From a candidate division WWE3 bacterium UBA1397 (GTDB taxonomy: Bacteria; Patescibacteriota; WWE3; UBA101185; UBA10185), in assembly GCA_002305205.1 (NCBI GenBank), contig DBQJ01000021.1, positions 6,448 through 64,438 on the forward strand: 57,991 bases of DNA. Direction: 5' to 3'. A program made the position numbers and the translations under genes. How positions within the stretch are numbered: the stretch's first letter is position 1; every line of letters begins with the position of its first letter. Positions 10,735-12,591 of the stretch are shown one piece after another. Below the pieces are notes generated by a model that was not told the DNA's origin, ran no database searches, and saw nothing but the letters and a program-made list of their open reading frames with translations.

Positions 10735-12591
10735 ATGAAAAAAGAAAATAATGAAAATAGTGTATATGATTTTAAACAGGTAGAAGATAAGTGGTATAAG
10801 CAGTGGTACGGAAATAATATCTACGGTGTTCAGATAGATAGTACCAAGCCCAAGTTTTACTGTTTGGACACTTTTCCTTATCCTTCTGCTGATGGCGTAC
10901 ATATAGGATATGTCAAAAGCTTTGGAGGTATGGATGTTGTAGCCCGTTACAAACGAATGAAGGGTTTTAATGTTCTTTATGCAATGGGTTGGGACACACT
11001 TGGACTTCCAGCAGAAAACTACGCAATTAAAACTGGTATTCACCCAAGAGAAATAACCTACAAAAGCATTAAAAACTATAAGGAGCAGTTTAAGCACTTC
11101 GGTATTAGTTATGACTGGAACAGGGAAATAGATACAGCGGAGCCAATATATTACAGATGGACTCAATGGTTGTTTTTGCAAATGTACAAAAAAGGTTTGG
11201 CATACAAAAAGGAGTTTCCAGTTAATTGGTGCGAAAGCTGTAAAACCGTTATCTCAAACGAACAAGTTGTAGACGGAAAATGTGAAAGGTGCAAAGGTAC
11301 GGTCATACAAAAGCCATTACTGCAATGGTTTTTCAAAGTAAGTGCCTATAAAGAACGCTTGTACAAAGATACAGAAAAGCTTAACTGGGAAGAAAAATAT
11401 CTTAATCCGCACAGGAAATGGATTGAAGGTGTAAGAGATTGGTGCGTATCAAGACAAAGATATTGGGGTCCTCCTATACCAATTATTTATTGCCCAAAAT
11501 GTGGGGAAGTTCCTGTACCTGAAAAAGATTTGCCAGTTTTCTTGCCGATGAATGTAGATTTCACACCTACAGGTGAGCCACCCTTAGCTAAAGTAGACCA
11601 CTTTGTGAACACTACTTGCCCCAGGTGCGGCGAAGCAGCGAAGCGAGAGACTGACACCATGGACACTTTTGTGACTTCTGCATGGTATCAGTTTAGGTTT
11701 ACCGACCCAAATAATGACGATATGTTTGCATCACCTACTCAATTGGGTTATTGGGGTTGTGTCGACCACTATCAAGGAACTATTGAACATATTACAGCAC
11801 ATTTGATATATGCAAGGTTTGTAACGAAAGTTCTTTATGACGAAGGTCTCGTATCTTTTGACGAGCCTTTTCCTAAATACACACCTGTTGGATTACTTGT
11901 GGACAAAAGCGGTGAAAAATACTCTAAAAGATTGGGAAACGCTCCTGATACAAATGAACTGATTGCAAAATATGGTGGCGATTTGTTAAGACTTTCCTGT
12001 CAGTTTATTACCCCTTTTGATGACATCTCTCGCTGGGGAGAATCCGATATTGTAGGTGTTAAAAGGTTCTTTGATAGTGTATGGAACATCTTTGTGACTA
12101 AAGTTACTGATGATGTTGCAGAAGTACCTAGCAAAATAAGCTCTGACTTGAATAGACTTATAGGGGATGTAGAAGAAGCCATTGAAGCAATGAAGTTCAA
12201 TGTGGCAATTAGCAAGATGATGGTTTTTATTGCCTCTCTTAAAGACTTTGATACTGTCCCTGCTGAGGTGTGGGAAACATTTGTGAAACTTATTGCACCC
12301 TTCGCACCATTTGTTGCTGAGGAAATGTGGTCTCGCATGGGGTATACAACATCAGTACACTTAGCAAGTTTTCCGATTGTAAACAAAATCAGCTTGGAAC
12401 AGACTACTGTAAGAGTAAGTATTCAAGTTAATGGCAAACTTAAAGGTGTACTTGACCTTCCAGTAGGTGCTTCAAAAGAAGTTGCAGTTAAGGATTCGTT
12501 AGAAACAGAACGAGTTAGTCAGGTGTTAAAAGACAAGAACTATTCCGTTATTTATGTGCAGGATAAAGTTATTAACTTTGTGACTGAGTAG
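10735..12591 (+). CDS. leuS: leucyl-tRNA synthetase lacking the CP1 editing domain
   Basis: Colinear with bacterial LeuRS (PYPS..HIG., GWD.[35 protein letters not shown], IEH...HL.Y.RF, C-terminal VNGK domain). Only 618 aa: RKWIEG joins directly to [13 protein letters not shown]. Confidence 0.85.
   Translation: [618 protein letters not shown]

What the first reader, a model, noticed from the sequence alone, without database searches (positions are those of the whole stretch)
10735..12591. Mobile-element LeuRS with a precise CP1 (editing domain) deletion and non-canonical class I signature motifs
The 618-aa protein is colinear with bacterial LeuRS from the N-terminus to the C-terminal tRNA-binding domain. 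However, the segment that in E. coli LeuRS lies between ...QRNWIGRSEG and ...[14 protein letters not shown] (the roughly 190-aa CP1 hydrolytic editing domain) is absent. Here the sequence reads ...[20 protein letters not shown].

The leucine-specific insertion before KMSKS is also missing. The signature motifs read HIGY (for HMGH) and KYSKR (for KMSKS). The frame is open throughout and the gene keeps a T-box, so it looks expressed rather than decayed.

From memory, the known precedent is that Mycoplasma mobile LeuRS naturally lacks CP1 and mistranslates. Editing-site inhibitors (benzoxaboroles such as tavaborole) need CP1.

A horizontally moving, starvation-induced, editing-less LeuRS could do one of three things: confer inhibitor resistance, deliberately raise Leu-codon mistranslation, or serve a non-canonical role. 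Which applies is pure inference.
Basis: partly seen in the sequence, partly recalled or inferred. Interest (0 to 1): 0.8.

Follow-up and report, generated by a model that had tools for sequence, protein, structure and literature searches.

The report
Editing-less leucyl-tRNA synthetase on mobile island
A tiny-genome (Patescibacteria/CPR) bacterium carries an extra leucine-charging enzyme on a small integrating DNA element that its sister strains lack; the enzyme has no proofreading domain, sits behind a tRNA-sensing switch, and belongs to an undescribed family that may act as an emergency or inhibitor-proof copy of an essential enzyme.

Summary
ORF 10735-12591 encodes a 618-aa bacterial LeuRS in which about 195 residues (the CP1 editing domain) are replaced by a direct join, WIEG|VRDW. 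Its signature motifs are HIGY and KYSKR, and it is preceded by a Leu (CUA) T-box leader with a terminator.

It is not a one-off. It belongs to a monophyletic family of at least 37 protein clusters of CP1-less LeuRS. The family is under strong purifying selection, has altered motifs in every member and a homologous Leu T-box in 16 of 17 loci examined. Its nearest relatives are full-length Patescibacteria LeuRS.

In this window the gene is the first cargo gene of a ~6.9-kb serine-integrase element. This is the outermost of three tandem elements inserted at tRNA-Asn. Conspecific contigs, 99% identical in the flank, lack the element.

The most likely reading is an accessory, error-prone LeuRS switched on when tRNA-Leu charging fails. 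Possible benefits are backup or inhibitor resistance; which applies is inference.

A second, full-length leuS in the host is inferred, not shown.

CP1-less LeuRS also turned up on cyanobacterial plasmids, apparently by independent loss.

Verdict: real, a new variant of known kinds (the M. mobile LeuRS architecture; plasmid-borne AgnB2), and interesting.

The parts
10306..10351 (.). Left end of the island array. It holds the att core ATTGGCTCCCC (10306-10316, identical to the 3' end and flank of tRNA-Asn) plus a 35-nt arm. It is a direct repeat of 25649-25694.
   Evidence: Homology to conspecific contigs L053/L055/L056 stops at 10313, inside the core. The 46-bp repeat is 95.7% identical. Core copies are listed.
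10351..10380 (+). Tentative promoter inside the element: TTGCTT, 18 nt, then TGTTAATAT (extended -10).
   Evidence: Read by eye. It is not flagged by the consensus scan. Inference only.
10408..10695 (+). Leu-specific T-box leader. Stem I is truncated. The specifier CUA lies at 10453-10455 and is followed by G. The T-box motif GGGTGGTACCACG lies at 10610-10622. The terminator hairpin spans 10640-10687 and is followed by a U-run to 10695.
   Evidence: Rfam RF00230 scores 49.4 bits, E 7.7e-10. The terminator folds at -31.1 kcal/mol. The specifier is CUA or CUC in all 11 aligned homologous leaders. 37 of 65 consensus pairs show compensatory changes.
10735..12591 (+). CP1-less LeuRS, 618 aa. HIGY is at nt 10900-10911. 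The CP1 junction G232|V233 is at nt 11428-11433. KYSKR is at nt 11917-11931. Both zinc-knuckle Cys pairs, the anticodon-binding domain and the C-terminal domain are retained.
   Evidence: The AF2 model has pLDDT 85.4 and pTM 0.81. Foldseek top hits are all bacterial LeuRS, and only M. mobile 3ZIU gives a reciprocal TM of about 0.8.
12648..13067 (+). Small HTH protein of the terminase-small-subunit family (element gene).
   Evidence: Pfam Terminase_2 1.1e-07; phrog_51 1.6e-10.
13189..14262 (+). Hypothetical 357-aa element protein.
   Evidence: No hit in Pfam, PHROGs or PADLOC. It sits in the same position as the 336-aa and 320-aa proteins of the sister elements; those two are 29.6% identical to each other, but the 357-aa protein matched neither, so the correspondence is positional only.
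14411..14674 (+). DUF5659 protein (element gene).
   Evidence: Pfam PF18903 2.4e-08.
14771..15658 (+). Hypothetical 295-aa core protein of the element family.
   Evidence: 57% identical to the 294-aa protein at 31464-32348 and 49% identical to its L054 counterpart.
15683..17266 (+). Large serine recombinase/integrase of the LeuRS element (SerRec1). Its 3' part contains an att core copy, AATTGGCTC, at 17180-17188.
   Evidence: Resolvase and Recombinase domains. phrog_95 integrase 5.4e-71. 79% identical to SerRec3. Core copy shown.
17189..25659 (.). Second tandem element. It carries an HNH endonuclease (17331-18131), an SDH/ClpP-like protease (18386-19435, minus strand), hypothetical genes, and serine recombinase SerRec2 (24073-25701), whose 3' end holds the core AATTGGCTCCCC at 25648-25659.
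   Evidence: A Logan contig, L147, equals window 10310-25678 exactly.
25660..33863 (.). Third tandem element. It carries DUF2703/thioredoxin, an ArsP permease, hypothetical genes, 336-aa and 294-aa proteins, and SerRec3 (32355-33890), which reads into the core and the tRNA-Asn 3' end at 33852-33863.
33855..33929 (-). tRNA-Asn (GTT), the chromosomal attachment site of the array.
   Evidence: Overlap with the SerRec3 3' end is shown.

Best explanation
**What it is.** The gene encodes an accessory leucyl-tRNA synthetase. It belongs to an undescribed, monophyletic family of Patescibacteria-type LeuRS that lost the CP1 editing domain once and then remodelled the ATP and leucine site: HIGH became H-x-G-Y or T-I-G-H, KMSKS became K-F/Y-S-K-R, and Met40 became Thr.

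**Where it sits.** In this genome it travels with its own promoter-proximal Leu T-box. It is the first cargo gene of a ~6.9-kb large-serine-integrase element (10317-17188). That element is integrated, with two related elements, at the 3' end of tRNA-Asn.

**Proposed working (inferred).**
- While the resident LeuRS keeps tRNA-Leu charged, transcription stops at the leader terminator.
- When uncharged tRNA-Leu (CUA/CUC-reading isoacceptors, discriminator A73) accumulates, it pairs with the specifier and the UGGU bulge, stabilises the antiterminator, and the enzyme is made. Uncharged tRNA could build up because the resident enzyme is inhibited or leucine is scarce.
- The enzyme then charges tRNA-Leu without post-transfer editing. 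It would be insensitive to anything that acts through CP1, and possibly to tRNA-dependent adenylate mimics.
- The cost is lower fidelity, which the T-box confines to emergencies.

**Shown:** the architecture, the family, selection, the T-box, the island and strain variability.

**Inferred:** catalytic activity, coexistence with a full-length leuS, and the selective benefit.
For: **Architecture.**

**Family.**
- 37 CP1-less sequences group together in 40/40 and 30/30 NJ bootstraps on a long stem, next to Patescibacteria/Saccharibacteria full-length LeuRS.
- dN/dS is 0.03-0.06.
- Motif changes are family-wide and absent from 94 full-length relatives.

**T-box.**
- A homologous leader is present in 16 of 17 evaluable loci.
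- The specifier is always CUA or CUC followed by a purine.
- The leader shows covariation.
- Three native full-length CPR leuS genes have no T-box.

**Accessory and mobile status.**
- Conspecific contigs, 98.7-99.5% identical in the flank, lack the segment. One carries unrelated cargo at the same core.
- Clusters at 90% identity hold 22-26 members for SufB, TrpRS and SufS of this species but only 3 for the LeuRS.
- GC is 0.387, against 0.34 for TrpRS and AlaRS in the same window.
- Four copies of the att core delimit three tandem elements. Each ends in a serine recombinase. SerRec1 and SerRec3 are 79% identical.
- The LeuRS cassette is 99.9% identical between two island variants whose backbones are only 84-97% identical.
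- In relative L050 the same module lies in a serine-recombinase element that abuts tRNA-Pro.

**Analogy for the benefit.** The plasmid-borne self-immunity LeuRS AgnB2 also replaces the Met of KMSKS, lacks the LS domain and has altered tRNA-binding elements (PMC5059758).

**Analogy for activity.** M. mobile LeuRS is active without CP1 or the LS domain (PMC3643597).
Against: - No second, full-length leuS could be shown for this strain. The source genome is not in the searchable genome collection and only +/-10 kb around hits can be read.
- No biochemical data exist for any member of the family.
- This subclade lacks even the ~10-residue hairpin that most members carry in place of CP1. M. mobile carries a nonapeptide there that can replace E. 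coli CP1 for aminoacylation. In human LeuRS the corresponding CP1 hairpin is needed for activation and charging (PMC4138327).
- The second His of HIGH is Tyr.
- Several relatives sit among ordinary chromosomal genes with no recombinase within 10 kb, for example FtsA/FtsZ/pyruvate kinase in L001 and FtsQ/FtsA in L063. The gene could be housekeeping there.
- No natural editing-site inhibitor of LeuRS is known to me, and no biosynthetic cluster lies nearby.
Confidence: 0.6

Rival explanations
1. Lineage trait. This is the cell's only, housekeeping LeuRS. CP1 was lost by reductive evolution as in Mycoplasma mobile, and an integrative element merely landed next to it.
For: - The family is old and diverse, and under strong purifying selection.
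- T-boxes commonly control housekeeping aaRS genes. A similar T-box precedes ValRS in L141.
- Some relatives lie among core genes.
- CPR genomes are small, so a second LeuRS is a luxury.
Against: - The T-box and gene lie inside the att-bounded element, to the right of the core at 10306-10316.
- Conspecific strains lack it.
- Its 90% cluster has 3 members, against 22-26 for core genes.
- Its GC content resembles the element, not the host aaRS genes.
- The cassette is nearly identical between diverged island backbones.
Confidence: 0.12
2. Non-canonical LeuRS-like protein. It binds tRNA-Leu and/or makes Leu-AMP but does not supply Leu-tRNA-Leu for translation. Precedents are Sulfolobaceae LeuRS-I and haloarchaeal LeuRS2.
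For: - The HIGH and KMSKS motifs and about 25 otherwise conserved active-site-region positions are changed family-wide.
- The CP1 hairpin is missing in this subclade.
- Some members lack the C-terminal tRNA-binding domain.
- Precedents for non-charging LeuRS duplicates are summarised in PMC9437257.
Against: - Both lysines of KMSKS, the first His of HIGH (in most members), the EH..H motif, the Asp that binds the alpha-amino group, the zinc knuckles, the anticodon-binding domain and the C-terminal domain are conserved.
- Thr or Asn variants of HIGH work in TrpRS (own knowledge).
- The protein scores above the equivalog cutoff for bacterial LeuRS.
- A Leu T-box fits a charging enzyme best.
Confidence: 0.15
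3. Programmed mistranslation. The element supplies an editing-less LeuRS so that, under stress, Ile, Met or norvaline is placed at Leu codons to diversify the proteome.
For: CP1 is absent. M. mobile is a precedent for mistranslation (Li et al. 2011, cited). T-box control restricts expression to stress.
Against: Family-wide changes in the leucine pocket (Met40 to Thr and others) could instead tighten discrimination, as reported for mitochondrial LeuRS with defunct editing (cited in PMC4787780). No evidence shows that error is the selected trait rather than a tolerated cost.
Confidence: 0.1
4. Decaying pseudogene or an assembly artefact.
For: One relative (L069) is broken at the CP1 junction into two ORFs in different frames.
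Against: - The frame is open.
- The same gene appears in independent assemblies from ENA, Logan and NCBI.
- dN/dS is 0.03-0.06.
- The AF2 model is confident.
Confidence: 0.02

Closest known systems
Mycoplasma mobile LeuRS (PDB 3ZIU; Li et al. 2011; Tan et al. 2012; Yan et al. 2013)
   Same: - It is a natural bacterial LeuRS without CP1 and without the LS domain, about 620-640 aa.
- It aligns colinearly with this protein (residues 9-616 vs 7-636).
- It is the only solved structure with a reciprocal TM of about 0.8.
- Most family members carry a short Asp/Asn-Gly hairpin (for example KEVKDGETT) where M. mobile has KEEIDGKIT, and VDKxG where it has GKDG.
   Different: - Origin is independent. This family scores 640-669 bits against full-length Patescibacteria LeuRS but 395 bits against 3ZIU.
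- Here the gene is accessory and island-borne, not the sole chromosomal leuS.
- Here it is T-box controlled.
- Here the HIGH and KMSKS motifs are altered.
- This subclade has no linker peptide at all.
AgnB2, the agrocin 84 self-immunity LeuRS of plasmid pAgK84 (PDB 5AH5)
   Same: It is an extra LeuRS on a mobile replicon. The conserved Met of KMSKS is replaced (KQSKS there, KF/YSKR here). The LS domain is absent and tRNA-binding elements are modified.
   Different: AgnB2 keeps CP1 and the HIGH motif, is linked to the antibiotic's biosynthesis genes, has no T-box, and has a demonstrated resistance phenotype.
T-box-controlled second aaRS copies that resist inhibitors or stress (IleRS2/mupirocin; Anabaena ThrRS T2 with impaired editing)
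   Same: A duplicate aaRS is kept silent until the main enzyme fails. In the ThrRS T2 case editing is impaired.
   Different: These involve different amino acids. None lacks the whole editing domain, and none sits on a serine-integrase island in CPR bacteria.
CP1-less LeuRS on cyanobacterial plasmids (Aulosira laxa NIES-50 plasmid2 BAZ78283.1; Nostoc sp. MS1 pNSMS102 WP_317986631.1; Kovacikia minuta CP083583), found here and annotated only as leuS or class I ligase
   Same: CP1 is replaced by a 9-residue hairpin (WIGRDEIDGTVQYHLRDW). The genes lie on conjugative plasmids next to a transposase or integrase.
   Different: They are about 41% identical to this protein, with a canonical KMSKS, HVGN and no T-box. 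They do not group with the CPR family in the NJ tree (0/30 bootstraps).
Sulfolobaceae LeuRS-I and haloarchaeal LeuRS2
   Same: They are extra LeuRS copies with a disrupted editing domain or weak charging, and their role is unknown.
   Different: They are archaeal-type enzymes that are chromosomal, with CP1 disrupted rather than excised and no riboswitch.

Membership tests
Bacterial leucyl-tRNA synthetase (NCBIfam TIGR00396 leuS_bact) | Whole-protein score above the curated equivalog cutoff | tested here: met
   621.9 bits against a cutoff of 548.4, in 3 stretches.
Bacterial leucyl-tRNA synthetase (NCBIfam TIGR00396 leuS_bact) | Class I signature motifs HIGH and KMSKS | tested here: inconclusive
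   The motifs are in the right places but read HIGY and KYSKR. All 94 full-length relatives have HxGH and xMSKx. Both KMSKS lysines are kept.
Bacterial leucyl-tRNA synthetase (NCBIfam TIGR00396 leuS_bact) | CP1 hydrolytic editing domain (Pfam PF13603) inserted in the Rossmann fold | tested here: not met
   There is no PF13603 hit. Fifteen residues stand where relatives have a median of 210. No CP1-like ORF occurs anywhere in the window.
Bacterial leucyl-tRNA synthetase (NCBIfam TIGR00396 leuS_bact) | Anticodon-binding helical domain and C-terminal tRNA-binding domain | tested here: met
   Pfam Anticodon_1 1.2e-19. Residues 397-617 align to T. thermophilus 639-876. The domains are folded in the AF2 model.
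Bacterial leucyl-tRNA synthetase (NCBIfam TIGR00396 leuS_bact) | Charges tRNA-Leu with leucine | not testable with these tools
   Needs an enzyme assay or complementation.
M. mobile-type minimal LeuRS | CP1 replaced by a short linker and the LS domain replaced by a tetrapeptide | tested here: met
   The junction is WIEG|VRDW (0-2 residues; most family members have about 10). VDKSG precedes KYSKR. For comparison, PMC3643597.
M. mobile-type minimal LeuRS | Common descent with MmLeuRS, and being the sole LeuRS of a reduced genome | tested here: not met
   The protein is closer to full-length Patescibacteria LeuRS than to 3ZIU. It is absent from conspecific strains. MmLeuRS itself could not be placed in the tree.
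T-box riboswitch (Rfam RF00230) | Rfam gathering score | tested here: not met
   49.4 bits against 93. Relatives score 35-55 bits.
T-box riboswitch (Rfam RF00230) | Conserved T-box sequence in an antiterminator that competes with a terminator | tested here: met
   The motif GGGTGGTACCACG lies at 10610-10622. The 5' arm of the terminator overlaps the 3' strand of the antiterminator. The terminator folds at -31 kcal/mol and is followed by U7.
T-box riboswitch (Rfam RF00230) | Specifier codon matching the regulated amino acid, followed by a purine | tested here: met
   The specifier is CUA at 10453-10455, then G. It is CUA or CUC in all 11 aligned leaders.
T-box riboswitch (Rfam RF00230) | Full-length Stem I with a distal platform for the tRNA elbow | tested here: not met
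   Only 29 nt stand where the model has 71. A conserved 4-bp hairpin with a 13-nt loop replaces the distal region.
Large-serine-recombinase integrative element at a tRNA gene | Recombinase with Resolvase and Recombinase domains at the end of the element | tested here: met
   SerRec1, SerRec2 and SerRec3.
Large-serine-recombinase integrative element at a tRNA gene | Repeated att core derived from the target tRNA end, and presence/absence polymorphism between strains | tested here: met
   The core AATTGGCTC(CCC) occurs at 10306, 17180, 25648 and 33852. Conspecific contigs diverge at the core.
Large-serine-recombinase integrative element at a tRNA gene | Excision or a circular intermediate | tested here: inconclusive
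   The 15,369-bp contig L147 has 26-bp terminal repeats. Its ends are exactly where a k=31 graph would break at the 34-bp repeat, so it does not prove a circle.
Inhibitor-resistant or self-immunity aaRS (AgnB2/MupA kind) | Second copy beside a sensitive housekeeping enzyme | not testable with these tools
   Inferred from the strains that lack the island. The rest of the genome cannot be read.
Inhibitor-resistant or self-immunity aaRS (AgnB2/MupA kind) | Linked antibiotic biosynthesis genes or a demonstrated resistance phenotype | tested here: not met
   No biosynthetic or defence genes occur among the element's genes. The phenotype was not tested.

The most novel reading that the evidence does not exclude
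CP1-less LeuRS genes carried by mobile elements are a recurrent, convergently evolved class of natural resistance or bypass determinants for LeuRS-directed toxins. Examples are the serine-integrase islands in Patescibacteria and the conjugative plasmids in Nostocales. This would imply two things: that as yet unknown natural products (or interbacterial toxins) act through the LeuRS editing domain or through tRNA-dependent trapping, and that an environmental reservoir of resistance to benzoxaborole drugs already exists.
Probability: 0.25. Interest if true: 0.85.

Novelty: new variant of a known kind. Interest (0 to 1): 0.7.

Why it matters
Natural LeuRS without an editing domain has rested on essentially one example, Mycoplasma mobile, read as a by-product of genome reduction. 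This finding shows a whole family that is conserved, riboswitch-controlled and carried as cargo on integrating elements. A convergent case lies on cyanobacterial plasmids.

That changes the picture. Loss of editing becomes a selected design for an auxiliary enzyme rather than decay.

It gives direct experimental handles:
- how much fidelity the synthetic site alone can provide;
- whether the KMSKS and HIGH remodelling confers inhibitor resistance;
- whether benzoxaborole antibiotics that trap tRNA-Leu in CP1 (tavaborole, epetraborole, ganfeborole) face a ready-made, transferable bypass;
- how a T-box with a truncated Stem I reads a class II tRNA.

It also documents a modular family of tRNA-targeting serine-integrase elements in CPR bacteria, whose mobile elements are poorly known.

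Tried and rejected
- **Genome collection scan.** A scan of the GTDB species-representative genomes with the protein found only full-length LeuRS (35-42% identity). The rest of the host genome therefore could not be searched for a native leuS.
- **Viral contig scan.** Nothing found, so there is no support for a phage origin.
- **Metagenome scan.** A scan with a family-specific 69-aa sub-alignment was largely swamped by ordinary LeuRS, because one chosen pattern (HL[VI]YARF) is general. Only 8-9 family loci were gained.
- **Second class I gene in L141.** A class I synthetase gene beside the CP1-less LeuRS in L141 looked like the hoped-for coexisting leuS, but it is ValRS (NF009687, 963 bits).
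- **M. mobile in the tree.** I could not obtain the full MmLeuRS sequence. The PDB tool prints only the top five alignments, and 3ZIU did not match the junction-only query. Independence from M. mobile therefore rests on score comparisons.
- **Terminal repeat of contig L147.** It is not accepted as evidence of a circular form.
- **Direct repeats in relatives' loci.** A search around the tRNAs of L001, L050, L051 and L063 found nothing convincing.
- **PADLOC.** No defence system found in the elements.
- **Trans-acting CP1 protein.** Rejected; the CP1 profile found nothing in six frames.
- **Zinc-sparing paralogue.** Rejected; both Cys4 knuckles are intact (by reading the sequence).
- **LS-domain loss as a special feature.** Rejected; the nearest full-length relatives lack it too.
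Full report
**1. The observation**

The ORF at 10735-12591 (+) is open for 618 codons.
- It scores 621.9 bits on NCBIfam's bacterial LeuRS equivalog, above the 548.4 cutoff, but in three separate stretches.
- Pfam finds the class I catalytic core and the anticodon-binding domain, and no LeuRS editing-domain model.
- Against Thermus thermophilus LeuRS, query 11-230 aligns to 4-224, 219-387 to 406-576, and 397-617 to 639-876. Neither CP1 nor the leucine-specific (LS) domain has a counterpart.

I aligned 131 LeuRS sequences: 37 short ones, 84 full-length database hits and 10 genes from genome loci.
- The distance from the conserved Trp of NW(P/E)EK to the Arg of RDW is 15 residues here.
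- It is 15-26 residues in all 37 short proteins.
- It is 171-470 residues (median 210) in the 94 full-length ones.
- So about 195 residues are missing, and the join reads [20 protein letters not shown].

A profile built from 74 CP1 domains finds nothing in any of the six reading frames of the window (best E 0.54). No CP1 is hiding elsewhere or in trans.

The motifs are HIGY (56-59) and KYSKR (395-399). All 94 full-length relatives have HxGH and xMSKx.

An AlphaFold2 model built on the family alignment is confident (pLDDT 85.4, pTM 0.81). Its best structural matches are all bacterial LeuRS. Only the M. mobile enzyme (3ZIU) matches over the full length of both partners (TM 0.80 / 0.80-0.86). The others leave about 40% of the target, which includes their CP1 domain, unmatched.

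One qualification applies. The nearest full-length relatives (770-830 aa) also lack the LS domain, so that absence is inherited rather than a feature of this protein.

**2. The T-box**

At Rfam's gathering threshold nothing is reported. A local search gives RF00230 at 10408-10648 with 49.4 bits (gathering score 93, E 7.7e-10). The shortfall comes from Stem I, where 29 nt stand in place of 71.

The rest of the leader is canonical.
- The T-box sequence GGGTGGTACCACG lies at 10610-10622.
- A 21-bp terminator hairpin (-31 kcal/mol) at 10640-10687 is followed by seven U's.
- The terminator's 5' arm overlaps the 3' strand of the antiterminator.

Homologous leaders precede the gene in 16 of 17 relatives that have upstream sequence. 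The exception, L142, keeps only the terminator.

In an 11-sequence alignment the specifier position reads CUA (window, L051) or CUC (nine others), always followed by a purine. The bulge reads UGGU, which fits the A73 discriminator of tRNA-Leu (the A73 point is from my own knowledge).

RNAalifold finds 65 consensus pairs, and 37 of them show compensatory double changes. The leader is therefore a conserved, functional Leu T-box of a short-Stem-I kind.

Three native full-length leuS genes of CPR bacteria (two Collierbacteria, one Saccharibacteria) have no T-box. A ValRS gene in one CPR contig has a related T-box. So the host group uses T-boxes, but not generally for leuS.

**3. It is a family**

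The protein search returned about 35 clusters of 55-65% identical proteins, 550-700 aa long, none with PF13603. The next tier was full-length Patescibacteria LeuRS at 40-46% identity. The metagenome scan added a more distant member, L070 (44% identity, HVGY, KFSKR, with a T-box).

Tree and selection:
- In neighbour-joining trees on about 600 shared columns, the CP1-less sequences are monophyletic in 40/40 and 30/30 bootstraps. They sit on a long stem next to Saccharibacteria and other Patescibacteria sequences.
- dN/dS between family pairs is 0.03-0.06 (dS is near saturation).

Motifs and junction:
- Most members carry a ~10-residue hairpin (WIGKEVKDGETTFHLRDW) where CP1 was. It recalls the M. 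mobile nonapeptide KEEIDGKIT (PMC3643597).
- The window protein and several scattered branches have lost even that.
- HIGH reads H(I/F/V)GY in 23 members, TIGH in 8, HVGH in 2, and NVGY or TVGA in single members.
- KMSKS reads K(F/Y)SKR in 36 of 37.
- About 25 positions that are nearly invariant in full-length LeuRS are replaced by a different, family-invariant residue. Among them are Met40 of the leucine pocket (here Thr46), the Gln before the KMSKS strand (here Val385) and the Gly of GG(V/I)EH (here Thr349).

The active site has been remodelled in step with the loss of CP1.

**4. Genomic setting**

The window is a cellular chromosome.
- It carries the SUF operon, TrpRS, FtsH, TatD, AlaRS, GroES and cell-envelope genes.
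- Its FtsH is 70-79% identical to those of candidate division WWE3 and other Patescibacteria.

Contigs that encode an identical SRAP protein (window 6951-7562) come from the same species.
- L053, L055 and L056 are 99.3-99.5% identical to the window from position 1 to 10313, then unrelated.
- L054 is 98.7% identical to position 10364, and resumes at 18195 (83.6% identical). It lacks the T-box, LeuRS, terminase-small-like gene, three hypothetical genes, serine recombinase and HNH gene.
- L053 carries different cargo (dehydrogenases and a resolvase) at the same point.

The break falls inside ATTGGCTCCCC (10306-10316), which equals the 3' end and flank of tRNA-Asn at 33852-33863.
- The same core recurs at 17180-17188, inside the 3' end of SerRec1.
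- It recurs again at 25648-25659, inside the 3' end of SerRec2.
- SerRec3 reads into the tRNA itself.
- The 35 nt after the first and third cores are also repeated; the whole 46-bp repeat is 95.7% identical.

The region from 10.3 to 33.9 kb is therefore three tandem integrative elements, each ending in a large serine recombinase.
- The outermost element (10317-17188, ~6.9 kb) carries the T-box-LeuRS as its first gene.
- SerRec1 and SerRec3 are 79% identical.
- Their upstream 295-aa and 294-aa proteins are 57% identical.
- The third element carries ArsP/thioredoxin cargo in place of the LeuRS.

Further signs of accessory status:
- GC is 0.387 for LeuRS and 0.36-0.40 for the element genes. It is 0.34 for TrpRS and AlaRS and 0.30-0.345 for the left flank.
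- SufB, TrpRS and SufS of this species sit in 90%-identity clusters of 22-26 sequences. The LeuRS cluster has 3.
- Between the window and another island variant (L004), the LeuRS gene differs at 2 of 1857 nt while the backbone is 84-97% identical. This points to recent exchange or a sweep of the cassette.

Relatives show mixed contexts.
- In L050 the T-box-LeuRS module heads a ~7-kb segment that ends in a serine recombinase overlapping tRNA-Pro.
- In L001 and L051 the module lies directly 3' of tRNA-Asp and tRNA-Glu.
- In other loci it sits among ordinary or accessory-looking genes with no recombinase in reach.

**5. What it most likely does**

Shown:
- an intact, selected LeuRS body without editing;
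- a Leu T-box;
- carriage on an integrative element;
- absence from conspecific strains.

Inferred:
- Because island-free strains of the same species must charge tRNA-Leu, the species has another leuS, presumably a full-length Patescibacteria type. This gene is then an auxiliary copy.
- The T-box would keep it off while tRNA-Leu is charged and turn it on when charging fails.
- Once made, it would charge tRNA-Leu without post-transfer editing.

The benefit cannot be decided here.
- The inhibitor-bypass reading draws on AgnB2, the plasmid-borne agrocin-immunity LeuRS. It also replaces the KMSKS methionine, lacks the LS domain and has modified tRNA-binding elements (PMC5059758). It also draws on the fact that benzoxaboroles need CP1 (own knowledge; structures listed).
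- The altered leucine pocket could instead be compensation for lost editing, as reported for mitochondrial LeuRS (cited).
- A non-charging role, as in Sulfolobaceae LeuRS-I, is kept as a rival because the HIGH and KMSKS changes and the missing hairpin are real.

**6. Relation to what is known**

Full-text searches found no paper that links a LeuRS editing domain with the Candidate Phyla Radiation (0 papers). Searches combining LeuRS, CP1, duplication, plasmids and cyanobacteria returned only the following:
- the M. mobile work;
- AgnB2;
- the archaeal duplicates;
- reviews.

Unexpectedly, a tblastn search of plasmids found CP1-less LeuRS genes on three cyanobacterial replicons:
- the conjugative plasmids of Aulosira laxa NIES-50 and Nostoc sp. 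MS1;
- a 1.2-Mb replicon of Kovacikia minuta.

Their features:
- The junction is WIGRDEIDGTVQYHLRDW, with HVGN and a canonical KMSKS.
- There is no T-box.
- In the two annotated plasmids (Aulosira, Nostoc) the gene lies next to a transposase or an integrase.

A 2.6-kb metagenome contig (L075) holds yet another CP1-less LeuRS, with canonical HMGH and KMSKS.

None of these groups with the CPR family (0/30 bootstraps). CP1 therefore appears to have been lost several times, and at least twice in copies carried on mobile DNA.

**7. Verdict**

It is a new variant of known kinds: the M. mobile architecture and the AgnB2-like mobile auxiliary LeuRS.

What is new:
- the family itself;
- its dedicated T-box;
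- its coordinated motif changes;
- its carriage on tRNA-targeting serine-integrase elements in CPR bacteria.

The main open points are the unverified second leuS and the absence of any biochemistry.

Noticed in passing
window 10306-33929: Three tandem large-serine-recombinase elements are stacked at tRNA-Asn. Each recombinase gene reads into a copy of the att core AATTGGCTC(CCC). Elements 1 and 3 are homologous (integrases 79% identical, 295-aa and 294-aa proteins 57% identical) but carry different cargo: LeuRS versus DUF2703/thioredoxin plus ArsP permease. This is a modular element family in a CPR bacterium.
   Followed up: partly
window 10735-12591 vs L004 178-2034: The LeuRS cassette differs at only 2 of 1857 nt between two island variants whose other genes are 84-97% identical. 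This suggests recent exchange or a selective sweep of the cassette alone.
   Followed up: partly
L145 7109-8869 (AP018309.1), L146 7064-8875 (NZ_AP023443.1), NZ_CP083583.1 683496-685253: CP1-less LeuRS genes lie on cyanobacterial plasmids or megaplasmids (Aulosira laxa, Nostoc sp. MS1, Kovacikia minuta). CP1 is replaced by DEIDGTVQY, a peptide strikingly like the M. mobile nonapeptide KEEIDGKIT. They are annotated simply as leuS or class I ligase. In the NJ tree they are independent of the CPR family.
   Followed up: partly
L075 748-2514: Another CP1-less LeuRS (junction QRNWIAELRDW) has canonical HMGH and KMSKS and lacks the N-terminal ~40 residues. It lies on a 2.6-kb metagenome contig and groups with a Clostridia LeuRS in the NJ tree.
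   Followed up: no
window 10408-10475 and alignment A4: The family's T-box has a very short Stem I: a conserved 4-bp hairpin with a 13-nt loop (GAAUAACCAAUAA) replaces the distal platform. Even so, it controls a gene for a class II tRNA with a long variable arm. A related leader precedes ValRS in L141 (5499-5664, minus strand).
   Followed up: partly
L069 9030-10771: An L070-type CP1-less LeuRS is split into two ORFs in different frames, and the break falls exactly at the former CP1 junction. It could be a pseudogene, a sequencing error or a split enzyme.
   Followed up: no
P0032, P0033, P0041; L051 10001-11930; L063 8912-10600: Three family members end about 60 residues early and so lack the C-terminal tRNA-binding domain. 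In L051 a separate 82-aa ORF follows immediately.
   Followed up: no
window 54995-56925: The AlaRS here is short (about 610 aa: catalytic core plus the SAD domain, with apparently no C-Ala domain). It starts right after tRNA-Cys, and the longest ORF overlaps the tRNA.
   Followed up: no
window 40309-41329: A tRNA-Ile with anticodon UAU abuts a Xer/phage-type tyrosine recombinase gene on the opposite strand. Two tRNA-Met genes follow at 41816-42031. This may be another integration hotspot.
   Followed up: no
L147 (Logan SRR5321232 contig, equal to window 10310-25678): This contig spans exactly elements 1 and 2 and has 26-bp terminal repeats. That is what a k=31 assembly graph would produce by breaking at the 34-bp repeat, but an excised circle would give the same result.
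   Followed up: partly
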